DNA from: Candidatus Heimdallarchaeum endolithica | GTDB lineage: Archaea; Asgardarchaeota; Heimdallarchaeia; Heimdallarchaeales; Heimdallarchaeaceae | Direction: 5' to 3' | Assembly (NCBI GenBank): GCA_021513715.1 | Contig: CP084167.1 | Coordinates: 1,888,001-1,952,000, forward strand | Length of the DNA: 64,000 nucleotides | Shown: piece by piece, positions 981 through 58,188 of the stretch | How positions within the stretch are numbered: the stretch's first letter is position 1 | How the letters are laid out: every line of letters begins with the position of its first letter | Program-made: the position numbers and the translations under genes | The notes under the pieces: generated by a model | Database searches by the model: none | What the model was told of the DNA's origin: nothing | Seen by the model: only the letters and a program-made list of their open reading frames with translations

Positions 981-1048
981 TTAAATAAAAATGTATCACT
1001 ACATTTTTATTACTTTATTCTTTTTATTTTTCGCGAACAGTGATTTAT

Positions 1049-3559
1049 ATGACACTAATTTTTGAACCACAAGAGATAGAGCTAATAGACGAAACCATTC
1101 CTACTATAACACTATCTTCTGAAACAACAGACTATCGTTATGGAAAATCACCATTAAATAGATCAATTGAGGAACTTCTCAATTATGGTATTATCAATTT
1201 AGATAAACCACCAAATCCAACAAGTCACGAAGTCGTGAGTTTTGTAAAGAAAATTTTAGAAATTCCTCGAGCTGGACATTCTGGTACTCTTGACCCTGCA
1301 GTTACTGGTGTCTTACCTATTGCCCTAAATAAAGCAACAAGAATTCTGGATACTTTACTTTTAGCAGGAAAGGAATATGTTTCTATAATGCAAGTACATC
1401 AAGACATCCCTCATGATAAAATAAAGGAAGTTATGCTTGAATATGTTGGAGAAATCTTCCAGAGACCCCCAATTAGAGCAAGTGTAAAAAGAGTTCTAAG
1501 AAAACGTAAAATCTATGAATTGAAAATTTTGGAAATAGATGATCGCTTAGTATTATTCAAAATGTCATGCCAAGCAGGAACATATGTACGAAAACTGTGT
1601 TTACATCCAACAACGCAAATTTTAACTAAGAATGGTTCAATATCTATCACAGATTTTTATAAGAATCCAACAATAGTTCTTACTTTTAATGATGGTAAGG
1701 TGGTTGAAAAACCCCCTTCTGCTGTTCAAAAAATCAAGGCACCATCACAATTAATAAAGATAACAATGGAATCTGGTATTAGTTTTATAGCAACACCTGA
1801 TCATGAGATGCTTAAGTCCACTTTAGATGGATATGTTATGACTGAAGTTAAAGACTTAAAAAAGGGAGACTATTTAGTAAAAAGTTTGAATTATCATCTA
1901 CCAAATAAGAAACTGATAATAGCGGATTTGCTGGACGATGAGTTCTTAATTGACCAACAAAAACTTAAGGAAAAATGCAAAGAGGCTTTTATTCAAAAAT
2001 ATGGCAGTATAAGAGCTATGAGTGAGGCTTTAAGAATTGATAGAAAAGTGTTTTACTCTGATTCTAGAATCGCAATTAAAATTAAACATCTAAAATTGGC
2101 AGGAATATATGATAAAGTCAAAAAAAACATTCATCGCTTCAAATTCACAAAAGGCATGACTGTAGATTTGAAGAATCTTAATGACGAGTTCTTTTATTTA
2201 TTGGGTTTAATAGCTTCGGATGGAAATAATACAAAGGAAAAAGGTACTGTCCGCTATACGAGGATTATGTTTCACAATAAAGAAAAAGCACTAATTGACA
2301 AATTCATTGAAATTTGTGAGAGACTATTTCCTAATGTACATTATACAGTGAAAAAACATGAAAATGATATTTGGGGTGTTGTTACCTCAAATTCTTTAAT
2401 GGCGTCCATAGCAGCTTCATTAGGGATAAAAAGTCCCAAAAAACATTCAGATTTTTCACCTTTGCTTTATATTGAACCGATACTTCTAAAAGCATACTTG
2501 AAAGGTTATTTTGATGGAGATGGTTCAGCTTATTATAAGAAGTATCCTAATCACATTAAAACACGAATATCCTTGTTTACATTTAGTGAAAAAGAAGCAG
2601 TAGTTCTTCATAAAATCCTCCTCAAATTGAGTATTGAAAATAGAATCTTCTCAAGGACACGAACCAAAAAAGGAAAAGTAGAAGTTTATTATGAAGTATC
2701 TATAGAGATAATTGGAGCTCAACATAAATTCATTAAAGAAATTGGTTCAAATCATCCTAATAAAATGAGAATACTGGAGAAAATAAGATCAATTGAACAA
2801 GAACATGAATATGGAAACAACTATCATGTGGGATTGCATTTTAATAAAATGTTATCTGAAAATAAGACTGAGCTAAAAAGAATAATGGGAGGAAATTTAA
2901 GCAGACTATTGGGAAAAAACATACCTGTCACTAGAAGATTTTACAAACGAGCTTCTTCTTTCGTGAATCTACCTTCACTTGATGATTTCATTATCGAAAA
3001 AATAGAGAAAATAGAAACTGTCGACAGCTGTGATTATGTTTATGATATGACAGTGCCAAACACACACAATTTCCTTATTGAAACTGGATATGTGTCTTCA
3101 AACTGTCACGACATAGGTCAATCTTTAGGTTGTGGAGCCCATATGAAAGAACTGCGAAGAATAAGAACGGGACCATTTACAGAGGAAACTTTCTTGTCCA
3201 CTTTACATGACCTTTATGACGCTTTTATGTGGTATAAAGAAGAAAAAGATGAAATCCCACTGAGAAATATTATTTTGCCTATGGAGTTTGCAGTAAAACA
3301 TTTACCAAAAATTTATGTTAAAGACAATGCAGTAGACACTATATGTCACGGAGCACCTGTTGCTTTACCTGCAATTTCCAAAATAACTACAAATTTCAAG
3401 GAAGGAGATACAGTAGCAATTCACACGCTAAAAAACGAATTAGTAGCTTTAGGAGATGCTCAAATAGATGCAACTAAACTAGAAAAAATGGATTCTGGCC
3501 TTATTGTTAAAACAAAAAGAGTTCTAATGCCAACAGGCACATACCCCAAATCAAATTAA
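1049..3559 (+). CDS. cbf5: H/ACA RNA-guided pseudouridine synthase Cbf5 (TruB family) containing an intein
   Basis: INLDKP..PTSHEV, GHSGTLDP catalytic motif, GTYVRKL/CHDIG motif split by an insert, C-terminal PUA domain. Confidence 0.95.
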   Translation: MTLIFEPQEIELIDETIPTITLSSETTDYRYGKSPLNRSIEELLNYGIINLDKPPNPTSHEVVSFVKKILEIPRAGHSGTLDPAVTGVLPIALNKATRILDTLLLAGKEYVSIMQVHQDIPHDKIKEVMLEYVGEIFQRPPIRASVKRVLRKRKIYELKILEIDDRLVLFKMSCQAGTYVRKLCLHPTTQILTKNGSISITDFYKNPTIVLTFNDGKVVEKPPSAVQKIKAPSQLIKITMESGISFIATPDHEMLKSTLDGYVMTEVKDLKKGDYLVKSLNYHLPNKKLIIADLLDDEFLIDQQKLKEKCKEAFIQKYGSIRAMSEALRIDRKVFYSDSRIAIKIKHLKLAGIYDKVKKNIHRFKFTKGMTVDLKNLNDEFFYLLGLIASDGNNTKEKGTVRYTRIMFHNKEKALIDKFIEICERLFPNVHYTVKKHENDIWGVVTSNSLMASIAASLGIKSPKKHSDFSPLLYIEPILLKAYLKGYFDGDGSAYYKKYPNHIKTRISLFTFSEKEAVVLHKILLKLSIENRIFSRTRTKKGKVEVYYEVSIEIIGAQHKFIKEIGSNHPNKMRILEKIRSIEQEHEYGNNYHVGLHFNKMLSENKTELKRIMGGNLSRLLGKNIPVTRRFYKRASSFVNLPSLDDFIIEKIEKIETVDSCDYVYDMTVPNTHNFLIETGYVSSNCHDIGQSLGCGAHMKELRRIRTGPFTEETFLSTLHDLYDAFMWYKEEKDEIPLRNIILPMEFAVKHLPKIYVKDNAVDTICHGAPVALPAISKITTNFKEGDTVAIHTLKNELVALGDAQIDATKLEKMDSGLIVKTKRVLMPTGTYPKSN
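1598..3103 (+). mobile_element. Intein (502 aa) with LAGLIDADG homing endonuclease in Cbf5
   Basis: Starts CLHPTT, block B ATPDHEML, LAGLIDADG-type motifs LLGLIASDG and YLKGYFDGDG, ends VYDMTVPNTHNF...VSSN followed by Cys+1. Confidence 0.93.
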
Positions 3560-5330: not shown

Positions 5331-8300
5331 TTAGCTAAAGAACGTATCCAAACTTTTTATTCCCTCAACTTCTTTCCATGAGATTCCAAGTGTATCCAAT
5401 AGTTGTCCAAATGTTGATTGTACTAACTCTTTCATTTTTTTCACATCTACATCAGATTTAGTAGCAAGTTCTATAGGTTTGACAGAACACTCATCACTTA
5501 AACTAATCTTATCATTTAGTAGACCGGGAGGAACTTTTATCTTAAAGGGTTTTGTTTTAACGAATGTTATAGTTGAGCCTACGGCTATATCACTATTAGG
5601 ATTTTTAATTAATAACTGTATTGCTGCTTGTAATGGCTGTGTCCAACTCTCATAATCTTTTAATCTTTTGGAGAGAGTAACTGAAATAGCTAGATCTTCA
5701 AGCTTAAACGTTCTTTCGTCGAGCCTCCTCATTGTTCGTTGAACAATACTGATTATTTTCTCTTTTGCAGTCTCCAATTCTGCAGGAGATTTAACATCTG
5801 AAAGAATTTTCAAAACTCTATCAAAAGCACGTTTGATCAGATTAGGAGTATTCTTTTTCTTACCCATCAGACCTTTTACAATTGGTGTCCCTTTTGTTGT
5901 TATCCCAAAGTAGTTTTTCTTTCTATCGGAAAGGCAACAATACCTAAAAACATAGTCAATTCCTAATTCAATTTGAAAGTTTTCTAAGCTCCACTGTTTT
6001 AGTTCCTCAATATCACTTTGCTTTGGTTGATAAACAAATATACTATCTGTATCACCATACAACACAGGAATACCTAAATCTTTTTCACAGTGTTCTTTTG
6101 TTTTTGAAATTGCTTCTCTAGCTAAAGCAGTAGTTGATTCAGCAACAGGAGGACAATATAAAGCAAAGTTATCGGAACCTAAAACACCATATGAATTATG
6201 AACAACTATACCAGTGTCGCTCACAAACCAACCGTTTGACGTTTGAATGTCGTATACTGGTTCATTTGAAGAAGCACTTATATGCTTAATTTTAGTAGGA
6301 GTAGTCCCATTATAAGATAAGCCTTGCTTTTTGTTTTTGTATGGCTCACAAGGAAGTTCTACAATATGATATGTGGTCTCAATTATCTTATCATTTTCAA
6401 TGCGTTCATCTCGATAAATATTTACATTTTTTCCAGTTGCATTTGCAATCATAACAAGATCAGTTGCAAATTGTTTGTTTACAGTTGTACATCGAATTTT
6501 ATTACTATCTATGCATCCTTCATCATTTCTGAAATATTCATCAATGAAAATCTTGGCTCTATGTTTATCTAACAACTGAAGTGGAATTCTCCTGATGTTT
6601 ATGTAATTTCCACAAAGTTGCTCTAAAATCCTTGACCAAACTTTAGAGTTTATCACAAATCCTTTTTCACTAACAGTATAATTCAGATTCAGACGAGATA
6701 AAATTTTATTAACCCTTTCCCAATTTTCAGAACTTTTTTCTTGTAATTGAGAAATGAATGTAAAACTTTTCTTAACACTACCTACTGCAATAACCCAAGC
6801 AATTAACCGAATAAAATCATCATCAATGGATATTTTAGCATTGTACCAGATATTCTCATCAACCCCGATTGTAACTTTTAGCTCTTCTGAAAGCTCTTTT
6901 CTTATGGTATCTCTCTCAGATTCTGTGAGTTCATTCCATTTTGCTTTATACATTTTTAATGTTTCATTGTAAGTAAAGCATTCATTATCAACATTTATAC
7001 TAGCTTTTTTAACTACTTGATTGGATTGTTTAAAGTATTTTTCATAATTATCTCTTGAAAGTCCTATATACAGTTCTTGATCCGAAACTAAATCTGGAAT
7101 AAAGAGTGTTTTAGGAGGGTTTTCAGTTAATGGAATATTTTGAACAACAAAAACTTCATCATCAATTTTCAGTTCTCCTGCATACTTTTCACCTACTTGG
7201 AAATTTGAGAGTAATACAGGAATTTTATGGTTGGCTGTTAGTCTAATAGTTCTCCCATCTTCAAGCGTAATTTTTATCAAATCAGAAGGTGGCTTTTCCC
7301 AGTAACCTTCTATATCCACGAATATAGGAGAACCAAATGTATCATCTTTTTCTCTAGAAATGGACAATATTTGAAAATCTTGCCAACTATCTGCAAGTTT
7401 ACCAATTGAAAGTTTAGTCACTAATTTTGTTTTTTTATTTCTCACAATAACTTCAGAATCATAGGGAAGGCAAGCATTTATAAGAACTTTCAGTGAAGAT
7501 TGCATCACATTACTTAAAACACGTAATGCTTTATCGACAGTTTGATCCTTTGCTTTTTTCTTAAACCAGTAAACTCTAATATCTCGGATAAAGCCAATCA
7601 ACATGGACATTATTCCAACTTTTTTTGTACATACCCAGTGATTTGTTTCCGGTATTTTGTTGTTTTCTTTACATTCTTTATGGTTACATCTAATAGTTTC
7701 ATAAGAAAGATTACGTGTCTTGATTATTGAAGGGTAAAGACTGGCATAATCCAGAACATAAACGTCCCACCAGACTCCAGCTTTGGGTTGAATAACAATA
7801 GCTCCCTGGTATTTCTTTCCTTTTATAATCGCCTCAGTAGATACCTCTCCTTTTGCTCTTAGTATGTCTTCTGGCAAAGGAATGAGGTAGTTCCTTTTTC
7901 TGTGTTCATAATAAAACCAATTTTGTATCCAAATACTTACACTTGAACGGATAAAATCATCGATAGGCATCTTTGTCATTCTTGAAAGCATAAAGATAAG
8001 TTCCATCACTTGATTTTGACTAAAAGTAGTAAGTTCAAGAGTTATTACTGCATCCTGAGCGTTATATTCTATGAGTTCTTCTAAACTCAGATCCCAAATA
8101 TCTTTTTCATGTTCGACCTTATGTTTACCCAGGAGAGTTGAACCTAACTCATCTAAAGTTACTCGGTCATATTTCGCTCCAAAAGCATAAATTCTCATTG
8201 ATGCTTGTCTGAAAAAACGATAAAGATCAAGATGCAATCCATATTCAAGATAAGTATCATTTTGAGTTGAAGTTGTAGTTATAATCGGATTTTTGATGTT

Positions 8301-9341
8301 ATTTATGCCCAAGTTTTTTGCACGTTTGTTTAAGTAAGGTAAGTCAAAATTATCTCCATTAAAAGTTATAATTATAGGATATTTATTTATTTTCTTAAAA
8401 ACAGCTTCAATCAATTCTTTTTCATTTTCAAATTCAATAACTTTTATTTTCTCATCTTTTTTCTGAATAGGCGTTTTTTCTTCATTTAATATAAATATTG
8501 ACACATCACTACTTGTGTCTGCAAAGCCCACGGAGATAATTTTATCATTAGCTACCTTGGGATCAGGAATACGCCCTTTATCACTTTGTACTTCAATATC
8601 AAGAGAACAACGGGGAATATCAGGAATTGGTGAAAAAAAAGTGGGAAAATAAGATAAAACTAATTCATGTATTTCACTAGGTTGACTAGAGAAAATTTTT
8701 GTTATTTCATCCTTAATGGAAGGATCGATTTCTGGTTCTACTTGAATTATTTTTCCGTCCTTAATTTCATATAGCAATCCCGGAACAAGTAAATTATCGT
8801 AGATATAATTAAGGTGGTAACGGATATTAGCTTCATAGGAGGGGCTGATAAATTCTCTGAAACTATTTGATTTTCCACCTATGGCTAGAGGATTAGTTCC
8901 ATAAACTTTTGTAAGAGAAATAGAACTATCAGTTAACAAATTGTACTTTTCTATAGTTTCACAGCCAACGAATTCCTTATTACCTTGTAGGATACTTTCT
9001 ACTTCACTAATTGTTTTTGTAGTCAACAAATAGGGTTTATGCCCTGATTTGTCGTAAAAACGGTAAACTTTTCCATCTTCAGGATTATAAAATTTCATGT
9101 AGGCTTGCTCCTTTTCACCATCATAATTTACCGAAATAAGATAAGATGCAGGAAGATCAGAATGGACAACCAAAATATTAGAATTATCATCAAGAAAAGT
9201 GATATTACTATCTGAATCGCTGGAAGACGATTCTTTAACCTTAACCTCTTTGATTTCTGAAGCCTTTGTAAGAGAAGAGAATACCTTATTTTTCTCTATA
9301 TTGGGGCGAGACAAAAATTTCTCTAAATTCATTTGACCCAT
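5331..9341 (-). CDS. polB1: Family B DNA polymerase, PolB1-like, containing an intein
   Basis: Exo motifs LDIEV and FNGDNFDLPY; Pol motifs DYASLYPS, KVLINA/SYG, YGDTDS, KKNY; N-terminal YDG...GHKPY segment typical of PolB1. Confidence 0.92.
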   Translation of the reverse strand: MGQMNLEKFLSRPNIEKNKVFSSLTKASEIKEVKVKESSSSDSDSNITFLDDNSNILVVHSDLPASYLISVNYDGEKEQAYMKFYNPEDGKVYRFYDKSGHKPYLLTTKTISEVESILQGNKEFVGCETIEKYNLLTDSSISLTKVYGTNPLAIGGKSNSFREFISPSYEANIRYHLNYIYDNLLVPGLLYEIKDGKIIQVEPEIDPSIKDEITKIFSSQPSEIHELVLSYFPTFFSPIPDIPRCSLDIEVQSDKGRIPDPKVANDKIISVGFADTSSDVSIFILNEEKTPIQKKDEKIKVIEFENEKELIEAVFKKINKYPIIITFNGDNFDLPYLNKRAKNLGINNIKNPIITTTSTQNDTYLEYGLHLDLYRFFRQASMRIYAFGAKYDRVTLDELGSTLLGKHKVEHEKDIWDLSLEELIEYNAQDAVITLELTTFSQNQVMELIFMLSRMTKMPIDDFIRSSVSIWIQNWFYYEHRKRNYLIPLPEDILRAKGEVSTEAIIKGKKYQGAIVIQPKAGVWWDVYVLDYASLYPSIIKTRNLSYETIRCNHKECKENNKIPETNHWVCTKKVGIMSMLIGFIRDIRVYWFKKKAKDQTVDKALRVLSNVMQSSLKVLINACLPYDSEVIVRNKKTKLVTKLSIGKLADSWQDFQILSISREKDDTFGSPIFVDIEGYWEKPPSDLIKITLEDGRTIRLTANHKIPVLLSNFQVGEKYAGELKIDDEVFVVQNIPLTENPPKTLFIPDLVSDQELYIGLSRDNYEKYFKQSNQVVKKASINVDNECFTYNETLKMYKAKWNELTESERDTIRKELSEELKVTIGVDENIWYNAKISIDDDFIRLIAWVIAVGSVKKSFTFISQLQEKSSENWERVNKILSRLNLNYTVSEKGFVINSKVWSRILEQLCGNYINIRRIPLQLLDKHRAKIFIDEYFRNDEGCIDSNKIRCTTVNKQFATDLVMIANATGKNVNIYRDERIENDKIIETTYHIVELPCEPYKNKKQGLSYNGTTPTKIKHISASSNEPVYDIQTSNGWFVSDTGIVVHNSYGVLGSDNFALYCPPVAESTTALAREAISKTKEHCEKDLGIPVLYGDTDSIFVYQPKQSDIEELKQWSLENFQIELGIDYVFRYCCLSDRKKNYFGITTKGTPIVKGLMGKKKNTPNLIKRAFDRVLKILSDVKSPAELETAKEKIISIVQRTMRRLDERTFKLEDLAISVTLSKRLKDYESWTQPLQAAIQLLIKNPNSDIAVGSTITFVKTKPFKIKVPPGLLNDKISLSDECSVKPIELATKSDVDVKKMKELVQSTFGQLLDTLGISWKEVEGIKSLDTFFS
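6195..7472 (-). mobile_element. Intein (426 aa) in PolB1 motif B with a degenerate LAGLIDADG domain
   Basis: Starts CLPYDS, block B LTANHKI, ends VYDIQT...IVVHN followed by Ser+1; endonuclease motifs read LIAWVIAVG and IDEYFRNDEG. Confidence 0.92.
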
Positions 9342-9463: not shown

Positions 9464-10906
9464 TTATTTCTTGATACCCAAGAAACCAGCTAATGCAGGA
9501 ACTGTTTCTGCTACTTGCTCACTGGCAAAAATCTCATAATATTGCTTCAAGATACCGACAGTAAGCAAGATACCCGTACCCGTCCCTAATGCGCCTAGAA
9601 AGTCAGCAAAGGCTGCTAATACACCTATAAAGAATCCGCCTAACCAAGCTGCAGTAGGAATATAGCGATCCAAGTATTTTTCGACAATACGAGGGTTACG
9701 ACGAAAACCAGGGATTTGCATATCAGCATCAAGTAATTGCTTGGCAACATTACGAGAACTCATACCTGCAGTATCAATCCAAATCCTAGAAAAGATACCA
9801 CAGAGGATAACCATCAAAATAAAGTACGTAACAGCTTGCCAAGGTTGTTCAACTATTTGCTCCGGACCATATGGGGCAGTAGTAAAGGAAGCTAAACCAT
9901 TGATTGGCCGGCTTTGCTGTGTATCACCTATAGTATCCCATTCACCAAAAAAGGTGACCAAGAATCCACGAATGCCAGGATCGTTGGAATCCCATTTATT
10001 ATCAAGAAGGTTACTGATAAAGTAAATATTGGCAAATAGGGCACTAACTAAAATAACTGGAATGTTAGAGGTATAGAGAAATTTAATAGGATAACGAGCA
10101 GGCATCTTATATTGACTGTGTTGAACAGGAATCTCGATGCGAATACCATCAACATACATAACCATAGCAAAAACAACAATGGTAGCTACCAATCCAATAA
10201 TGTCAGGAGTACGACCAGTACGAGTGATAGATTGCATAACAGTATTTTCATCACGAATAATGCTCTGGAAAAAGGCGATAACAGCGCCACGAGCTAAACC
10301 ATACTGATCAGGGGTGAGATTGAACATACCATCAACAATGTTAAAACTAACACTAGTGGCAATAAAGAGAGAAATACCACTACCTAAACCATAACCCTTC
10401 TGGATGACTTCATCCATCATCATGATAACAAAACCAGCAGCAACAAGCTGAACTAAAAAAAGAGTCTTTTGAGCGAAAACTAAATCCTCACCATAAGCAC
10501 CACCAAGAATATAAGCAAGAGCCTCAAAAAGAAGCATAAGAATAGACATAATCTTTTGAGCACCAGTGTACAAAGCACGCTCTTCAGGGTTACTAAAATC
10601 AACCTTGATAATTTGGGAACCAACGAGGAGTTGAAAAATTAAGCCAGCAGTAACGATAGGTCCAATACCTAGTTCTGCTAATGTTCCTCTTTGCGATGCT
10701 AATATCGCTCTCATTGCATAGAATGGGTCTGTTCCTTGTGTTTCTTTAAATCCCACTAGTGGTATGTTTAGCATTGCCAGATATAGTATCAATATTCCGA
10801 ATGTCCAAAATAATTTTGCTTTAAACGACAGTTTTTTATCTGGTCTTTTTATCTCGAATGTAAAACGTTGAAATGGTTTGAACATAGTTAGGAATTTACT
10901 TGCCAC
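9464..10906 (-). CDS. secY: Preprotein translocase SecY/Sec61alpha
   Basis: RGTLAELGIGPIVTA, KGYGLGSGISLFIA, YPIKFLYTSNIP, IPGFR, GTGILL; GTG start with GAGGAG SD. Confidence 0.97.
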   Translation of the reverse strand: MASKFLTMFKPFQRFTFEIKRPDKKLSFKAKLFWTFGILILYLAMLNIPLVGFKETQGTDPFYAMRAILASQRGTLAELGIGPIVTAGLIFQLLVGSQIIKVDFSNPEERALYTGAQKIMSILMLLFEALAYILGGAYGEDLVFAQKTLFLVQLVAAGFVIMMMDEVIQKGYGLGSGISLFIATSVSFNIVDGMFNLTPDQYGLARGAVIAFFQSIIRDENTVMQSITRTGRTPDIIGLVATIVVFAMVMYVDGIRIEIPVQHSQYKMPARYPIKFLYTSNIPVILVSALFANIYFISNLLDNKWDSNDPGIRGFLVTFFGEWDTIGDTQQSRPINGLASFTTAPYGPEQIVEQPWQAVTYFILMVILCGIFSRIWIDTAGMSSRNVAKQLLDADMQIPGFRRNPRIVEKYLDRYIPTAAWLGGFFIGVLAAFADFLGALGTGTGILLTVGILKQYYEIFASEQVAETVPALAGFLGIKK

Positions 10907-11742
10907 TTTTTACTCCTCTTTTTTTCTATTTCTTTCTCTGTCTTTTCTGAATTCTCGTACCTTTAAAAGCCTTTTCTCTTTGTTCTTATTTTTTACTTTT
11001 TTTTTATTTTTTCTTCATTTCTATTTTTATCGTCTCCCATATTCTCATGTACATTTTGATTGTTAGATTTATTATTTTTTCATTTTTCTTCATTTTCATG
11101 TCTTGTATGATACTTATTTTTTTAGATTTTATAGCTCCTGGGTTGTTTACATAGTCACTTGCATCAAGGTAATCATCTTTCATTCCAAAGATGTTATCCA
11201 GAACAATATAGTAATTTTTTACAAATTCTAGTGCTTTTTCATATCCCATTAGGCTGTATTGGTTCATCGGGTATATTACTTTTTCTTCTTCTGTAAACGC
11301 CTTTTTCCATTCTCTGACATTTTTCCTTGCATTATCTTGAGGTAATCGATAGAATCTTGCTGCTGGTTTTTCTTCTATTGCTTGTGCTGTACATTGTATT
11401 TTGAACACAATTATATTTTCTGTTCCTAAATCGTTTATAGTTAGTTTTAATTTTTCATTTTCAGTTTCTGCTGCTTTTACGTATGCTAGATTTATTATTG
11501 CATTCAACATTTCTATTGTTATTCCTTTTTCTTCGTTTGTCTTTCCGAATATACTATCTGGTGAGAACGAATATCTTTTAAGGTTATATAATTTTGAAAA
11601 ATCTACTTTTATCAATCCTTTTTCTTCTATTATTTCTTTTTCCATTTTTTTTATTATATTCAGTATATTTTTTTCTATTTCTTCGTATTCGAAGTTAAAT
11701 CCTGGTATATCTTTTATTTTATTTTTCAGATCTTTAGTTGTT
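10670..11742. repeat. Direct repeat copy 1: secY 5' 237 bp + promoter region + 3' end of large unknown gene
   Basis: Aligns with 13376-~14450; secY part differs at 15 of 237 nt by manual count. Confidence 0.92.
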
Positions 11743-11745
11743 GAA
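11004..11745 (-). pseudogene. 5'-truncated paralog of the C-terminal ~240 aa of the large island gene
   Basis: Shares KDL..DIPGF, IVFKIQC..Q.IEEKPAAR.YRL, MNQYSLMGY, LDNIFG.K.DYLDAS and LTIKMYMRIW with 13726-17082; homology runs upstream of the internal Met at 11645 with no start codon. Confidence 0.8.
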
Positions 11746-12033
11746 ATATTAAAAAAATTAAAAGAAATTGAATAACTTTCTCAAAGTTGATTTATAATCA
11801 CAATATATGACTTTTAAAAAAAGAATATAAAAAAATCCAATAATAACAGGGGCTCCAAACAGTGAAAAAAAAGTGTAGAATATGTAAATACTTAGATGAA
11901 ATCTATAACAAAAATAAAAATATTTCAAAAAAGGTAGAAGTTAGTTGGAAAACACTATTTAAGCGATAATGCTAACACCCTATTTCTTTAATCAAAAATT
12001 ATTTAAAAAAAAGCAGTGATAATATAATTGATA

Positions 12034-13281
12034 ATGACAATACAGATAATTGGAAAAACAAAATACGGTACAACAGTTATTAAGAAAATAGATACAGAAA
12101 CAAAGGAAGTCTCTTTGAAAGATGAGGGGTTGCAATATATCGATTTAACACCATTAGAAAAATGTACTAATCTAACTACATTGTCTTTAAATGCCAATCC
12201 GTTACGTGAGGTTGATTTACCGTCATTAGAGAAATGTACAAGTCTAACCACATTGAATTTGAATGCAAATTTGTTACAAGAGATAAATTTAACACCATTA
12301 GAAAAATGTACTAATCTAACCAAAGTGTATTTGGGGGATAATCTGTTACAAGAGGTTGATTTATCGCCCCTAGAAAAATGTGCAAAAATAGAATTTTTGG
12401 ATTTGAGGGAGAATCAATTAAAAAAATTAGATTTAAGGTCATTAAAAAAATGTACTAATCTAACAAAAGTGGATTTGGCTATAAATCAGTTACAAGAGAT
12501 ATATTTACCGTTATTAGAAAAATGTACAAAACTAACTGAATTGGATTTAAGCAGCAATCAGTTAGAAAATATCGACTTAAGTCCATTAGAAAAATGTACA
12601 AAACTAACTGAATTGGATTTAAGCAGCAATCAGTTAGAAAATATCGACTTAAGTCCATTAGAAAAATGTACAAAACTAACTGAATTATATTTAAGCAGCA
12701 ATCAGTTAGAAAATATCGACTTAAGTCCATTAGAAAAATGTACAAAACTAACTAAATTATATTTAAGCAGCAATCAGTTAGAAAATATCGACTTAAGTCC
12801 ATTAGAAAAATGTACAAAACTAACTGAATTATATTTAAGCAGCAATCAGTTAGAAAATATCGACTTAAGTCCATTAGAAAAATGTACAAAACTAACTAAA
12901 TTGAATTTAAGCAACAATCAGTTAGAAAATATCGACTTAAGTCCATTAGAAAAATGTACAAAACTAACTAAATTATATTTAAGCAACAATCAGTTAGAAA
13001 ATATCGACTTATGTCCATTAGAAAAATGTACAAAACTAACTGAATTGGATTTAAGCAACAATCAGTTACTATGTTTTATCGATTTAACACCATTAGAAAA
13101 ATGTACAAAACTAACTAAATTGGATTTAAGCAGCAATATTTTAGAAGATATCGATTTAACACCATTAGAAAAATGTACAAAACTAACAAGATTGTATTTA
13201 GATGGAAATCAGTTACATGAATTGGATTTAACACCATTAAAAGACCTTATTGAAAAAGATTTATTGTTCATTTATCGATAA
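12034..13281 (+). CDS. Leucine-rich repeat protein, 15 x 24-aa LRR, no evident signal peptide
   Basis: Consensus LEKCTKLTELxLSSNQLENIDLSP. Confidence 0.92.
   Translation: MTIQIIGKTKYGTTVIKKIDTETKEVSLKDEGLQYIDLTPLEKCTNLTTLSLNANPLREVDLPSLEKCTSLTTLNLNANLLQEINLTPLEKCTNLTKVYLGDNLLQEVDLSPLEKCAKIEFLDLRENQLKKLDLRSLKKCTNLTKVDLAINQLQEIYLPLLEKCTKLTELDLSSNQLENIDLSPLEKCTKLTELDLSSNQLENIDLSPLEKCTKLTELYLSSNQLENIDLSPLEKCTKLTKLYLSSNQLENIDLSPLEKCTKLTELYLSSNQLENIDLSPLEKCTKLTKLNLSNNQLENIDLSPLEKCTKLTKLYLSNNQLENIDLCPLEKCTKLTELDLSNNQLLCFIDLTPLEKCTKLTKLDLSSNILEDIDLTPLEKCTKLTRLYLDGNQLHELDLTPLKDLIEKDLLFIYR
12154..13236 (+). repeat. 72-nt coding tandem repeat, 15 units; units at 12514-13017 nearly identical
   Basis: ttagaaaaatgtacaaaactaact recurs at 12514, 12586, 12658 and onward. 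Confidence 0.95.
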
Positions 13282-13357
13282 TGAAGGTACGAGATTCAGA
13301 GAGGAAAAAGAAACAGTGTGGAAACGATAACAAGAGAGGATATAAACACTTAAACAA

Positions 13358-13612
13358 TTAATGATTAGTAAAAAATAGTTCTGCTAATGTTCCTCTTTGC
13401 GATGCTAGTATCGCTCTCATTGCATAGAATGGGTCTGTTCCTTGTGTTTCTTTAAATCCCACTAGGGGTATGTTTAGCATTGCTAGATATAGTATCAGTA
13501 TTCCGAATGTCCAAAATAATTTTGCTTTAAACGACAGTTTACGTTCGGGTTTTTTTACCTCGAATGTAAATCGTTGAAATGGTTTGAAAATAGCTAAGAA
13601 TTTACTTGCCAC
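13358..13612 (-). pseudogene. secY: Truncated secY 5' copy (79 SecY codons + 5 unrelated codons)
   Basis: MASKFLAIFKPFQRF...SQRGTLAEL then FFTNH-stop; 73 of 79 aa identical to full secY. Confidence 0.93.
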
Positions 13613-14450
13613 TTTTTACTCCTCTTTTTTTCTTTTTCTTTTCTCTGTTTTTTTCAGAAAAATCGTACATTTAAAAGGCTTTTCTCTTTGTTCTTATTTC
13701 TCTTTTTCCTTATCATGTTTCATTCTTAATGTTTTGACATCTCTACTGTTAGAGCCGCCCATATTCTCATATACATTTTAATAGTTAGCGTTATTACTTT
13801 TTCGTTTTCCTTCACCTTAATATTTTGTTGTATATTTATTTTTTTGGATTGTATGTCCTCTGGGTAGTTAACATAGTGACTTGCATCAAGATAATCCTCT
13901 TTTATTCCAAAAATGTTATCAAGTATGATATAATAATCCTTTACTAGTTTTAGTGCGTTTTTATAACCCATTAGACTATATTGGTTCATAGAATACAATA
14001 TTTTATCATCTTCATCATATAATTCTTTCAATGATCTAACATACTTACTTGTAGTATCGTAGTTTAATCTATATAAGCGTGCTGCTGGTTTTTCTTCGAT
14101 TACTTGTGTCCCACATTGGATTTTAAACACTATTGCATTTTCTCCTCTAATATCTTTCCGATTTAGCATTAATTTTTCATTTCCCCTTTCTGCTGCTTTT
14201 ACGTATGCTAGTGTTATTATAGAGTTTAATATTTCCATTGTCATTCCTATCTTTTCAAAAGTATTACCGAAATTGGTATCCGACAAAAACAGATATTTTA
14301 TACTGTTATACGTTTCTGAAAATTCTACTTTTACCTTCTTTTTTTCTTCAATCTGTTTGATTATTTTTTGTATATTATTTGCTATATATTTATAATCATA
14401 TCTAAAACCAGGGATATCTTGCATTAATTTTTTCAAATCTTTACTAGTTA
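13376..14450. repeat. Direct repeat copy 2 (see 10670-11742)
   Basis: Starts with the same tagttctgctaatgttcctctttgcgatgcta; identity drops in the ORF part. Confidence 0.92.
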
Positions 14451-17400
14451 TTTCTTTTATTAACTCAAAAAGTTCTTTTGCTTCTCCTTCGTTATTATGT
14501 CCGAATAGGTATATTCTTATTGTTGGTGGTTTCTTATCATAAAGGATCGACACGAATTTATATCGATTAAATTTTTGTCCTCTTAGTCCATTAACAAAAA
14601 GATAATAGTATTCTTTTGGGTTAGTGGTTGGCATTATCAATATTTGGTCTTTAAAATGATCTTTTAGTTTTTTATTAAAATCTTTAAGTGTATTTATATA
14701 TCTATTATAGATTCTTGGGCATTCTGGTCTTATGAAACCTTTTATTCCAGGTTTTGTGAAGTTTATAAGATCTGTTTTGCTCATTATTTCATCCATAATT
14801 CTTTTTAATTCTCCCTTTTCTCCTTGATATTTTCCGAACATTGTTTTTATATTTTCATTTAGCACTAAATTGTCCACGTTTTCAAGCAATTTTCCCAGAT
14901 CTTTTAGATATATTATTCTTCCTTTTACATCCGCATTTTTTCTTGTAAGCGCTGAAAGTATATTATCATCATTTGGTAATATAAATTCTGCTATTATATC
15001 TACCTGATATCTATATTCCTTTCTTTTATTCTTTATTGCTATTATTTCCCCTTCCGATATTTTTCCTTGTTCTTGTTCTAGAAACGCTACTAAATACCCC
15101 AGCGGATTCAAAGTTTCGTCTAAGTATTTTGTTACACTTTCAGGTTTACTTGCGTTAACTGGGTATTTAGCCATACAAATCCCATTTAGTGCATATATTA
15201 GTTTATTTATTCTTTCGTGAGGATTAAATAGGGTGCTCATTTCTTTTAATCTGTTCAATTCCTTCAGGTAATCTGATAAGATCTTTGCTAATTCGGTTAT
15301 TATTTCATTTGTCAATTCTGTTGATGCAGAATAATAGAAATTCATTATTTTTTCAAGTATAATATATTCATCATTTGGTAAGTTCTCTTTTTTAACTATA
15401 GATTCTCCTTTTACTAGTATATCCAAATAGTTCTTTATTTCTATAATAGCATCTTCTACAGTCATATGATTTTTATCTATTATAATTTCTCCTTTTTCAT
15501 TACTTTCTATTTCAAAAGCTAGGACATTTCGATTTCTTAAATATTGACTGAATTTTAGAGCGCTGTCTGATATAAAAGCCCACACAATTTCTACTGTGAT
15601 ACTTAGCTCCTCTGCTATCTTTCTTAGCATTTTAAGATTAGAATATTCTGTATTCGTCACATTATTTAATTCATCTTTTAAGCTAACTATTTGTTTTTCC
15701 GTTCCTTCGAATCCAGTATATTTATCGTAATTGAGAGGTGAAAATAGTTTCCAATAAATAGATTTACCTTGTTTGTCTTTAATTATATTTCCATCTTTAT
15801 CTTGCAAGATTAATACAGGAATAAGTTCCCCATTTTTGTTAATCACTCTTATTCTTGACCACGTGTTCAATCCTATTCCGTTTTCAAGTAAAGTTTTTTC
15901 TTCTTTAGGTGAATATAATGTATCTACTAATTCTTTAGTAGTTACAGAAACAACTTTTTTTTGTTTTATTTGTATTTGATATAGTTGATATTTCGTTGGT
16001 ATATGATATAATGCTAGAATTTTTGCATGACTATTCCCTTGTATATAATTTTTATTAAAGTCATCCAATGTTGATATTAAAAACTCATTTGATTTAGCAC
16101 CATAGATGAGAACAAATTTTCCATACTGATTGGATTGTGCAGTATAAAAAGCTTGAGCTTCTTCTCCGAAATCTTGCTTGAAATTTTCATTTAAATTTGC
16201 TTTGTTAATAACGTTTAAAACGTTATGAAATTTTATCTTAAGGTATTCATTATTATTGTCTTCCACATCTGTTCTCTTTATGAGTACATAATCTTCAGCA
16301 GGATTATAGATATTTCCTTCTTCATCCTTAATTTCAAATAAACCAAAGTTTGTAGAATAACCTGTCGCCGCATGAAATATCAATTTAAAAGCAAATAATA
16401 TTTTAGCCATTTCATCTATAGTTAATTTTGTAGATTGTCCAGTAAAAAGCGAACCAACACCTAACAAAAATGTTGATAGAAAACCAGTATTATAAGCAAT
16501 TTGTTTTGGTTCATAATCTTTTGTCGCTAATCCATCATATATTTCAGATAATAATATTTTTCCCTTTGATAAATCGTAATCATAAACAAAGTCATCCATT
16601 AATTTCCTTTCCAAAACATCGAGTTTCTTTGATGTTGATTCGCTATAAACGTAACTCCATGCCGGAAGTCCACTTGTAAATTTTGATTCTGAAAAAACAC
16701 CATTTCCTATTATGAGGTCAATTCCTGTTGTAGAACTGAATTTGATGTTGTTTTGCGATTCCAATTCCATGGTGCTCTTTATAATATAATCCTTAATATT
16801 AACTTCAAACGGGTTATCATCTCCTTCCTTTAAATCAGATTTAATCTTTAAGAAGAAATTAGAACCGTCAAAGCTCTCATACATTATTTTATCTGTTTTG
16901 CGAAACAATAACTTCAAGTAATACATTACCTTTACCGCGCATTCTCTATTTGTTATTTCATTTTCTTGATTCTTTATGATGTCAAACATATATTTCGCGA
17001 ATTCAGAATAGAAGAAAATACGTTGCAATAATGTATAAATTGGGATAGCAGATGAAATAAATGTTTTAGCTATATAAGACAACGGAGCTTCTTCTCTTGA
17101 ATCAAATATAGAAACAAGATATGATTCAGAGTAACCTTTTTCTTTTAACCAGTCGAGGAATCTAATATCTAAGTCTTGTTCAAAAAATTTGTGTATCTTC
17201 TTTTTTTATCCATTTACCCAAATATTTTGGTAATTCCAAGTAAAAAACATAAATCTCAGGCGTCCTATAGTGTTTATATATAATTTCGTTTATTTCTTCA
17301 TCAACAAGTTTCGTTATTTCATTTTCTGATAAAAAAGGGCTTTCATTTCTAATTTTCTTCAATAAATTTTTTCTTGTTTCTTCAATATCTATCAAGTTGC

Positions 17401-17509
17401 TCCTAATAAGAAAAATTTCTTCTCTATTTATTGTGTTCAATGCATTCATTTTTGCAGTAATTTCATAATTTTTGCGTAATAGTAACTCACTCGATTCGAT
17501 TTTTTTCAC
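13726..17509 (-). pseudogene. Large unknown gene (~1260 aa) split by a 1-nt frameshift into the 109-aa and 1118-aa ORFs
   Basis: Removing one base from the A6 run at 17182-17187 reads DTQIF-EQDLDIRFLDWLKEKG...EEAP-LSYIAK in one frame; no domain recognised. Confidence 0.75.
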
Positions 17510-17544
17510 CTTTCAAGTAATTTTATTTTATTGCCGTTTTATCT

Positions 17545-17836
17545 TTTTGTTAGAGAAAAGACTGTGAGATTTTTCTCTTTTTTGTAATTTCATACTGTTT
17601 CATAACTTAAGGAAAAGTATTTCAGCAAAGAATATTCTATTAAACATATAATTCCACTTGTGATAGTCTCTGTGGTTAATATAAAGTTTAAATTATTTTT
17701 TAGAAAGCCAATAATTATTAATTAAACTGTGTTTTTGAAACCATTTTTTAAGCACAAAACTAACAACAATATTCAAATTTTAACTTTTCTATAAGGTTTG
17801 TTCATCTGTTGAATGAACAGTCTTTTTCTAACAAAA
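17545..17836. repeat. ~20-bp inverted repeats flanking a 292-bp non-coding segment (MITE-like)
   Basis: TTTTGTTAGAGAAAAGACTGT (17545-17565) vs reverse complement of 17817-17836 TTTTGTTAGAAAAAGACTGT, one gap. Confidence 0.55.
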
Positions 17837-17864: not shown

Positions 17865-18308
17865 TTATTCTGGAAGAACTACTTTTCCTCCAGCTTCTTC
17901 TATTTTCTTTATTGCACGTTCTGAAGCCTTTTTCACTTTTATTTCTGCAGGAGAAGTTATTGCTCCTTGAGCTAGAATCTTAGTGTATCCTAGTGCTCCT
18001 AGATCGATAACAATATTTTTCCCTTTTTTCTCAGCTTGTCCTTTAGCTATTAAATTAGGTATCATAGCGTCTATCTGGGAGATATTGATAACTTTATCTT
18101 TTTTGACCACTACAGGTGGCCGAGTAAAGCCATGTTTTCCTATAGGTTTTCGTCGACCTAGAATTACTAGCATCTTGTGTCTAGTTTTGGGTCCACATTT
18201 TCCTACACCTCCGCGAATACCGCTTTTTTTGTGTCCTTTTTGTTTTCCCCATCCATGATGCTGAGAACCTCTAAGTCTTCTTACCCTTTTCTTAAATCTT
18301 ACTACCAT
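17865..18308 (-). CDS. rpl15: 50S ribosomal protein uL15
   Basis: RRLRGSQHHGWG, GIRGGVG, KIEEAGG. Confidence 0.95.
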   Translation of the reverse strand: MVVRFKKRVRRLRGSQHHGWGKQKGHKKSGIRGGVGKCGPKTRHKMLVILGRRKPIGKHGFTRPPVVVKKDKVINISQIDAMIPNLIAKGQAEKKGKNIVIDLGALGYTKILAQGAITSPAEIKVKKASERAIKKIEEAGGKVVLPE

Positions 18309-18313
18309 TTTTC

Positions 18314-18799
18314 TCACGCCATCCTCACAATTAGTTCATTTATTGCTTCTCCTCTGTAGCCTAGATCTCCTCCTTCATTGTATCCTCTTTTCACACTCTT
18401 GAACCCTTTTCTTGGTGGATGTAATCTGAAGAATTTCTTCAGTCCTGGAACATCACTCAATTTTGCTTTTCCTTCGTATACTGCTTTTGCAAAATCTTTT
18501 ATGCTTTTGTACTCTGAATTTTCTTTTATGTATTCATCAGTAAGTCTTTGTTTTCCTCTTAGTTCTCCTCTTTTTTCTAGTAAATATGTTAGGGTTTCAA
18601 GATTTATTTCTCCATATGTAATGGTATCTTTTGCTCTTTTTAGCATACCCATATATGATGGTGTATTAGGTAGTATAGTCATATAGTTTTTTCTTCTAAT
18701 GTTAAGCATATCTAGTGTTTCTTTTATTTTATAATAAAATCCTACAGTTCCTCTTATTCTTATTACTGCTAGCATTGTCTTTTTTTCCTCTTTGCTCAT
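18314..18799 (-). CDS. rpl30: 50S ribosomal protein uL30
   Basis: AVIRIRG, FRLHPPRKG, GDLGYRGEAINELI. Confidence 0.95.
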   Translation of the reverse strand: MSKEEKKTMLAVIRIRGTVGFYYKIKETLDMLNIRRKNYMTILPNTPSYMGMLKRAKDTITYGEINLETLTYLLEKRGELRGKQRLTDEYIKENSEYKSIKDFAKAVYEGKAKLSDVPGLKKFFRLHPPRKGFKSVKRGYNEGGDLGYRGEAINELIVRMA

Positions 18800-57300: not shown

Positions 57301-57421
57301 GAGGGGATTGTCGAGCGGTCAAAGACGACAGGCTTAAGATCAGATTGCTTCTTTGAAAAAGGGCTAGAGAAGGAACCTGTTCCTTAGTGGTTCGGGAGTT
57401 CGAATCTCCCTCCCCTCACCA
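57301..57421 (+). tRNA. tRNA-Leu(TAA) with 36-nt intron (57339-57374) at 37/38; CCA encoded
   Basis: GAGGGGA/TCCCCTC, ACAGG/CCTGT, long variable arm, GGGAG-TTCGAAT-CTCCC. Confidence 0.9.
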
Positions 57422-57589
57422 CCACTAATAGAGAATTTTTAAAAAAAACTTTTCTAAATTAAAAGGGGGAAAAGAGAGAAGAGAAGATTAGGTTAAACTA
57501 CTCTCCTCAAAATAAATATAAGAAGTTAATATATAAGGATAGCAATTCTAGAATCCAAATTTCAGATAAACGATAGAAAAAAAATAGGG

Positions 57590-57868
57590 TTAATCATCAC
57601 TTATTTCAAGAAGGGTGATGATTTGTAATAGAATTGTTCTTGCATGCATTGGACAATTAGGATCTAAACTTATTTCTTCTAATATTTCTATAGCATTATT
57701 TGCTTTAACTGCAAGACTCAATTCAGGGTCGGGATCTCTTATAATTTCTAGTGAATTTGATGCTGCGCGTCTGATATTTCTTGGGACTGTAGTGTCTTCA
57801 GAAACTCGTTCAAGAAGCGCAATAGCTTCATTAATTTGTTCAACAGACTCATTATCCATTTCAAACAC
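57590..57868 (-). CDS. UPF0147 family protein
   Basis: D.TVPRNIRRAA, LEEIS.DPN.P.HART. Confidence 0.9.
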   Translation of the reverse strand: MFEMDNESVEQINEAIALLERVSEDTTVPRNIRRAASNSLEIIRDPDPELSLAVKANNAIEILEEISLDPNCPMHARTILLQIITLLEISDD

Positions 57869-58112
57869 CTCATAAATTTAAATGAAAGAACACACTACAC
57901 TTACCATCAGAGTTACTAGGTTTTTAACTTTTTCGAGAGAAGATTTTTAAATGAAAAAAAGAAGTTCAGAACTTTTTGCCTATAGAGATTAGAAATAGTA
58001 AAAAAAATAAATGAGGAAAGGATGATTAGATAAAAATCCCTAAACCAAAAATATAAAAAAGAGAGAAAAAAGAAAGTTTTGATAATATTCAAACTGTAAT
58101 ACAAACCGAGAT

Positions 58113-58188
58113 GGGCCAGTGGTCTAGTGGCTATGACATCTCCCTTACGCGGAGAGGATCGCAGGTTCAATTCCTGCTTGGCCCACCA
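58113..58188 (+). tRNA. tRNA-Val(TAC), no intron; CCA encoded
   Basis: GGGCCAG/TTGGCCC, TCTCC-CTTACGC-GGAGA, GCAGG-TTCAATT-CCTGC. Confidence 0.93.

What the first reader, a model, noticed from the sequence alone, without database searches (positions are those of the whole stretch)
10670..17836. Tandem secY-targeting island whose units supply a replacement secY promoter and 5' end
Seen: rpl15 and secY are separated by ~7 kb holding two units, each ending in [3' end of the same large unknown gene]-[promoter/SD]-[secY codons 1-79]. Both secY copies share identity up to the same base (10670 and 13376). They differ at 15/237 nt: the 4 changes in the ~160 bp nearest the junction are all synonymous and the 6 aa changes are conservative (T7A, M8I, I19V, R21K, D23E, K24R), while the flanking ORF copies are far more diverged. 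Known: integrative elements such as e14 at icd carry a piece of the target gene to repair it. Inference: not a simple tandem duplication but successive integrations of related elements into an essential translocon gene, each swapping in its own SecY N-terminus and promoter, which would also make the element end hard to lose. No integrase is visible in the window. Best candidate here for an undescribed system.
Basis: partly seen in the sequence, partly recalled or inferred. Interest (0 to 1): 0.9.

Follow-up and report, generated by a model that had tools for sequence, protein, structure and literature searches.

The report
Giant mobile elements rebuild essential secY
In an Asgard archaeon, giant-gene mobile elements have twice inserted into the essential protein-export gene secY, each time supplying their own promoter and gene start so the host survives, and they leave a local mutation scar that marks their landing sites across the chromosome.

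Summary
The window is from Ca. Heimdallarchaeum endolithica. The 'large unknown gene' is the 3' end of an aloposon giant gene (Wu 2022), so the 7 kb holds remnants of two such elements.

Other metagenomes supply the missing states: empty sites in both Heimdallarchaeum species; an intact element (4,476- and 5,335-aa giants) ending in the window's secY start; and a host secY stump broken at codon 78 and joined to the same element end (329/330 nt identical) in the sister species. A short-read contig confirms the upstream unit.

Corrections: the element's secY arm runs to codon 91-93, about 45 bp past the break; left junctions differ by 9 bp between strains; no integrase was found in these elements. 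This fits cut-and-copy repair (about 55%) better than an integrase crossover; no nuclease was shown.

The junction is the centre of a symmetric A/T strand skew shared with all three aloposon giant-gene ends and many tRNA genes. First readers had noted the skew on this genome; an integrase-free secY-start island was noted, unchecked, in another genome.

Verdict: a new aloposon variant that targets an essential protein gene and works like SXT at prfC.

The parts
9464..10906 (-). Functional secY (480 aa), chimera of element-A start and host remainder
   Evidence: Pfam SecY and Plug; allele table
10628..10981 (-). Right arm of element A: promoter, SD and secY codons 1 to 91-93
   Evidence: Same alleles as the arm behind the intact 5335-aa giant in L059 (1 difference in nt 1-237, none in 238-279); differs from empty alleles
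10669..10670 (.). Codon 79|80 junction; end of the repeat and centre of the strand-skew switch
   Evidence: Best change point at codon 79|80, rank 2 of 1838 genes; genome-wide peak at window 10671
10960..10968 (-). TATA-like box of arm A with purine-rich BRE-like bases upstream (putative secY promoter)
   Evidence: Conserved in both copies, H. aukensis and a third species; function inferred
11004..11741 (-). 3' tail (last 245 codons) of the giant aloposon gene of element A
   Evidence: 98% identical to P0004 aa 5091-5332
11736..11742 (.). Internal deletion joint of element A at a 7-bp microhomology between the wHTH-like gene and the giant gene
   Evidence: spanned by an independent contig
11736..11869 (+). 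Relics of the aloposon left end: tail of the small regulator gene and a motif like the repeat flanking HeimV2
   Evidence: 79-83% to genome 2244962-2245044, 2399062-2399121, 2245408-2245448
11865..11960 (+). Tail of the aloposon PD-(D/E)XK (Cas4/AddB-like) nuclease gene
   Evidence: tblastn 44-54% identity, E about 1e-6; family
12028..13281 (+). Leucine-rich-repeat cargo gene (24-aa units) at the left end of element A
   Evidence: same gene follows the secY stump in L060, 329/330 nt identical at its end
13375..13376 (.). Left junction of element A: displaced secY start joined to element end
   Evidence: 9 bp longer than the equivalent junction in L060; also a skew switch
13376..13689 (-). Arm of element B: promoter and secY codons 1-79, now an orphan (84-aa frame 13358-13612)
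   Evidence: Closer to arm A (15 differences) than to empty alleles (21 and 26)
13726..17788 (-). 3' 4.1 kb of the giant gene of element B (open 13726-17082, frameshifted beyond about 17200)
   Evidence: 65% to P0004 and 33% to the HeimV2 giant; 88%-identical relative in run X4
17819..17820 (.). Host spacer joined to truncated giant B exactly where the arm homology begins
   Evidence: Comparison with the empty sites
17865..18317 (-). rpl15 (uL15), host gene upstream of the site

Best explanation
SHOWN by sequence comparison: two related aloposon-derived elements inserted one after the other at the start of secY. Each ends, right after its giant gene, in an arm carrying a secY promoter and gene start. 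Element B came first and supplied the working start; element A then entered at codon 78-79, displaced B's start and fused its own (codons 1 to about 93) to the host remainder. Both later decayed. INFERRED (about 55%): insertion is cut-and-copy rather than an integrase crossover. The target is broken near codon 78-79; the downstream host end recombines with the element's arm and copies the element in; the other end is joined imprecisely; 30-45 bp of host sequence are replaced. Repeated repair around such breaks, biased towards T on strands running away from the site, builds the symmetric skew. The cutter is unidentified; candidates are the aloposon PD-(D/E)XK protein or the variable C-terminal module of the giant protein.
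For: Intact giant followed after 97 bp by secY with the window's N-terminus; rpl15-secY stump in the same MAG ending exactly at the break; stump plus LRR end in another MAG with sister-species host alleles; empty sites in both species. Arm alleles continue to nt 273-279 while stumps stop at nt 233 and 237. In L068 the crossover lies before codon 6 instead. At tRNA-Asn the host gene is cut about 25 nt before its end, about 29 bp are lost, and the giant-side end carries a complete inverted tRNA copy, which a single crossover cannot give. HeimV2 and HeimM2 are flanked by 95-134-bp diverged repeats, not short cores. The only tyrosine-integrase match in the genome is HeimV1's and no large serine recombinase was found. 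All 7 element-A changes just past the junction are to T, against 5 of 19 before it (p = 0.001). Skew peaks sit at all three giant-gene ends and 15 of 49 lie within 1.2 kb of a tRNA (1.3 expected); shuffles never exceed 3.2 against 5.2 here.
Against: No nuclease activity or catalytic fold was shown: the C-terminal model had no structural match and the larger model was unreliable. Linking the L059 arm to a sister-species host rests on binning, on contig ends falling at the expected branch points and on 1-2 informative bases. Only two left junctions were compared. A diverged recombinase could be missed by Pfam, and the upstream part of the intact element is not on the contig. The HeimV1 integrase site shows a weak skew of the same sign (2.3/2.7, within the shuffle range). 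The exact position of the 17820 junction is unexplained.
Confidence: 0.55

Rival explanations
1. Classical site-specific integration at codon 79 by an unrecognised or trans-acting recombinase (as SXT at prfC or e14 at icd), with later recombination between strains blurring the flanks.
For: Both repeats end at the same base; the site is reused in two species; tandem accretion also occurs at the 16S site.
Against: Left junctions differ by 9 bp; arm alleles extend 40-46 bp past them; inverted rescue copy at tRNA-Asn; no recombinase gene found in the elements.
Confidence: 0.2
2. One old insertion now spreads passively between strains and species by ordinary homologous recombination of the island with its flanks; no element-encoded cutting is needed.
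For: secY is a recombination mosaic among strains; the LRR end is 99.7% identical across hosts that are about 91% identical.
Against: Host alleles resume within 23 bp on the left and about 45 bp on the right of the element edge, very short for unselected recombination; it does not explain the skew centred on the junction.
Confidence: 0.13
3. The tails are orphan C-terminal modules of a polymorphic toxin-like giant protein kept as a swap library, with secY duplicated as a by-product.
For: The giant has a signal peptide and an acidic body; its last 1,400 aa are swapped between elements (80-100% identity before aa 3880, 24-46% after); unit B starts near that boundary.
Against: No immunity-like gene follows either tail; unit B is frameshifted and unit A keeps only 245 codons; the tails are tied to target-site arms; no toxin domain found.
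Confidence: 0.08
4. Simple tandem duplication in place, or misassembly of two haplotypes.
For: Mixed empty and filled alleles occur in environmental runs.
Against: Giant tails are five times more diverged at silent sites than the adjacent secY copies and evolved under selection; each unit has its own relatives elsewhere; short-read contig agrees.
Confidence: 0.03

Closest known systems
Aloposons / HeimV2 of Ca. Heimdallarchaeum (Wu et al. 2022, PMC8813620)
   Same: Tandem giant genes, subtilase-like gene, PD-(D/E)XK and small regulator genes, insertion site directly downstream of the second giant gene. The paper's Extended Data Fig. 7 legend mentions a further region with truncated giant-gene fragments, probably this one.
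   Different: Target is an essential protein gene, not a tRNA; the element carries a promoter and about 93 codons of it; rescue arms, imprecise junctions, target-linked C-terminal modules and the strand-skew scar were not found in the paper's text or supplements.
SXT/R391 ICEs at the 5' end of prfC (PMC2791158); e14 and phage 21 at icd (own knowledge)
   Same: Insertion near the start of a host gene, tandem arrays at one site; replacement of the gene start (restoration of prfC is from my own knowledge).
   Different: Those use a tyrosine integrase and near-identical short att sites; here none was found, the arm is over 350 bp and overlaps the break, and the target is essential.
Intron and intronless homing in T4 phage (PMC2988022)
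   Same: Break-directed copying with co-conversion of flanking sequence near the cut is what the junctions resemble.
   Different: No homing-endonuclease family was identified; the unit is over 33 kb and one junction is non-homologous.

Membership tests
Aloposon (Wu 2022) | Tandem genes for 3,000-6,000-aa proteins | tested here: met
   Window holds tails only; the intact relative has 4476- and 5335-aa genes, the latter 98% identical to unit A's tail
Aloposon (Wu 2022) | Integration at a tRNA site downstream of the giant genes | tested here: not met
   The site is downstream of the giant gene but is secY; hence filed as a variant, not a plain member
Aloposon (Wu 2022) | Four upstream genes including MinD/ParA | tested here: inconclusive
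   Tails of the regulator and PD-(D/E)XK genes remain; ParA region deleted in the window and beyond the end of the intact contig
SXT/R391 ICE | Element-encoded tyrosine integrase | tested here: not met
   Single PF00589 match in the genome, in HeimV1; none called on the intact contig
SXT/R391 ICE | Integration at prfC through near-identical attP/attB | tested here: not met
   Target is secY; junctions differ between strains
SXT/R391 ICE | Conjugative transfer genes and excised circle | not testable with these tools
   No Pfam family on the giants; only contigs, no raw reads
Homing-endonuclease mobility | Site-specific endonuclease cutting the empty allele | tested here: inconclusive
   PD-(D/E)XK gene present in aloposons; no fold match for the giant C-terminus; activity untested
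Homing-endonuclease mobility | Co-conversion of flanking target sequence | tested here: met
   Element alleles through nt 273-279 in two hosts, past the break; linkage caveat stated
Polymorphic toxin orphan modules | Variable C-terminal module on a conserved exported body | tested here: met
   Identity drops at about aa 3880
Polymorphic toxin orphan modules | Immunity gene directly downstream of each module | tested here: not met
   The secY arm follows within about 25-40 bp

The most novel reading that the evidence does not exclude
Aloposons are integrase-free 'cut and rescue' elements: an element-encoded nuclease, possibly the exchangeable tip of an exported giant protein, breaks an essential host locus (secY, tRNA genes, the 16S processing stem), the cell survives by copying in the element with its replacement arm, and each round leaves a symmetric mutational scar, so that old landing sites (about 15-20 in this chromosome, some inside protein genes) can be read from the sequence alone.
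Probability: 0.3. Interest if true: 0.92.

Novelty: new variant of a known kind. Interest (0 to 1): 0.78.

Why it matters
How aloposons move was left open when they were described. This locus gives the first set of empty, stump, intact and relic states for one, and makes the mechanism testable. It shows a mobile element supplying, and repeatedly re-supplying, the promoter and N-terminus of the SecY/Sec61 channel in a lineage close to eukaryote origins. The skew scar offers a sequence-only way to map past insertion sites, and warns that secY, tRNA-flanking and ribosomal-protein sequences of this genus carry local compositional bias and inter-species mosaicism that could affect phylogenies.

Tried and rejected
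Early idea that the orphan copy is the native host start (its protein equals H. aukensis): rejected, its DNA is closer to arm A than to either empty allele. Apparent 5-bp terminal inverted repeats at 17820 and at the arm start: rejected as probably chance, because giant-gene similarity runs to within about 20-30 bp of 17820. Giant gene next to rps2 in L055: chimeric contig with adapter sequence, ignored. Idea that the altered SecY N-terminus gives immunity to the giant's tip: not supported, L068 has the same type of tip with a native N-terminus. 'Recoded only at the break': arm A also diverges at codons 6-30, so the claim is not specific. No relatives found in viral, metagenome or genome contig scans, word-based protein searches, the Atlas (72) or PHROGs (102). 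Structure: C-terminal 376 aa modelled at pLDDT 75 with no usable match; the preceding 1091 aa gave pLDDT 37. No duplicated fragments found in this genome at the other in-gene skew peaks, and cluster members gave no clear stumps. Joints listed at low identity were not used as evidence.

Full report
Source. The window lies in a single 3,326,783-bp contig, the size reported for one of the two circular Ca. Heimdallarchaeum genomes. Its sister genome carries the secY named for H. aukensis, and it holds HeimV1, HeimV2 and aloposon 2 as described for H. endolithica, so I treat it as H. endolithica.

Observation. The two secY starts differ at 15/237 nt (dS 0.15) while the adjoining ORF tails differ at 191/720 nt (dS 0.84, dN 0.25), so the tails diverged as parts of separate working genes and the repeat is not an in-place duplication. 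A short-read contig matches 13.4 kb of the locus exactly and ends in the repeat.

What the ORFs are. The 1118-aa ORF and the frameshifted stretch above it match aa 3960-5323 of the 5326-aa giant of HeimV2 at 33%. A search of 1.8 billion proteins found a full-length 5335-aa giant whose end is 98% identical to the downstream tail and 65% to the upstream one. Its contig also carries a subtilase-like gene and a 4476-aa giant. These are aloposon genes (PMC8813620). Unit A also keeps tails of the small regulator and PD-(D/E)XK genes and an LRR cargo gene; its middle was deleted at a 7-bp microhomology. The paper's legend mentions an extra region of truncated giant-gene fragments, probably this one, but not secY.

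All states of the site exist. Empty: H. aukensis and an H. endolithica-type strain have rpl15, about 118 bp, secY. Intact right end: the 5335-aa giant is followed after 97 bp by secY with the window's N-terminus. Left end: the same MAG has rpl15 and a secY start ending at nt 233; another MAG continues from that base into the LRR end, 329/330 nt identical to the window although its host genes are of the H. aukensis type. So element A is mobile, recent and crosses the species line. The orphan copy in the window is closer to arm A (15 differences) than to the empty alleles (21, 26), so it is the arm of the earlier element B. B has no stump upstream: host spacer joins its truncated giant exactly where the arm homology starts. 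Either a deletion removed the stump, or B entered at the spacer as a truncated copy. In a third species the skew centre described below lies in that spacer, which favours an older intergenic target, but this is unresolved.

Junctions argue against a clean integrase crossover. The two left junctions differ by 9 bp. Element alleles continue to nt 273-279 (codon 91-93) on the right in both hosts, though stumps stop at nt 233-237, so 40-46 bp of host sequence are replaced; the host assignment of L059 rests on binning, contig branch points and 1-2 bases. In L068 an A-type giant and spacer are followed by a native secY from the first codons. At tRNA-Asn, aloposon 2 cuts the host gene, about 29 bp are lost, and a full diverged tRNA copy sits inverted after the giant. 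At the 16S site the repeats are 95-134 bp and 91-97% alike, the copy starting 8 bp after the giant's stop. The genome's one tyrosine integrase belongs to HeimV1; two resolvases lie far away; no large serine recombinase was found.

A mutational scar. At four-fold sites secY is A-rich in codons 1-79 and T-rich from codon 80, with the best change point exactly at 79|80, second strongest of 1838 genes; the switch persists in the empty alleles and is not seen in 28 secY genes of other genera. Genome-wide, strands running away from such points are T/C-rich, fading over 2-4 kb. Peaks lie at the giant-gene ends of all three aloposons and near tRNAs (15 of 49, 1.3 expected), far above shuffles, and the opposite polarity is rare. 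Recent changes follow the rule: 7 of 7 element-A substitutions just past the junction are to T. I infer repeated exposure or resynthesis of DNA on both sides of the site; whether by resection, strand displacement or local replication I cannot tell. I computed this before seeing that first readers had noted the same flips.

Mechanism. Best reading: break near codon 78-79, homology-directed copying through the arm, imprecise joining of the far end (0.55). The giant's last 1,400 aa are exchanged between elements and are more alike among secY-linked copies (65%) than to the 16S-linked one (33%), so they may choose the target; but aloposons 2 and 3 share this module at different tRNAs, and no fold was recognised. 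Rivals: hidden integrase (0.2), passive recombination (0.13), orphan toxin tips (0.08), duplication or artefact (0.03). That the locus is two aloposon-derived insertions with replacement secY starts I put at about 0.9.

Comparison. It works like SXT/R391 at prfC (PMC2791158) but fails that family's integrase and target tests; it resembles homing in its co-conversion (PMC2988022); it is an aloposon derivative that fails the tRNA-target criterion. I found no paper describing secY as such a target. Verdict: new variant of a known kind, interest 0.78.

Noticed in passing
window 27671-35420, centre about 32141-32326: Strong skew switch centred on an intron-containing tRNA gene with no element present; probably an old landing site.
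   Followed up: partly
window 57301-58188: Second skew switch at two tRNA genes (Leu/Val calls).
   Followed up: partly
G000 1825770, 1699325, 2600110, 3085390, 2487550, 2516691: Skew switches inside or beside protein genes (a class I tRNA ligase, probably ileS; a thermosome subunit; inositol-3-phosphate synthase; hypD) and at a remnant of an aloposon upstream gene; candidate former targets.
   Followed up: partly
G000 2352059-2352249 and 2390386-2390609: Aloposon 2 breaks tRNA-Asn and carries a complete inverted replacement with compensatory stem changes.
   Followed up: yes
G000 2204662, 2207402, 2245392: Three copies of the repeat downstream of 16S rRNA divide HeimV2 into a 38-kb aloposon and a separate 2.7-kb ibrA/ibrB unit; the 'virus-transposon hybrid' may be tandem accretion.
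   Followed up: partly
L057:3361-4299: Stand-alone 312-aa gene homologous to the giant's last domain, between rearranged halves of an actin-like gene in another strain or species.
   Followed up: partly
window 1040-3559 and 5331-9341: Inteins in cbf5 (absent in H. aukensis, 337 aa) and in polB.
   Followed up: no
L039:14893-16203 (G017); also G013, G015: Second, divergent full-length secY paralog (about 40-45% identity) in some relatives.
   Followed up: no
window 11919-11948: Three runs hold contigs that join other DNA at 11918-11919, and one leaves the locus at 11948, suggesting a further insertion polymorphism just upstream of the LRR gene.
   Followed up: no
window 11981-13362: The LRR gene with both flanks has four 65-70% relatives at G000 310-314 kb and 794-795 kb, so it may be a cassette of its own; not found in H. 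aukensis with this query.
   Followed up: partly
L064:8248-10480: In a third species the skew centre lies between rpl15 and secY, and rps5 is T-rich, suggesting the target has moved within the operon.
   Followed up: partly
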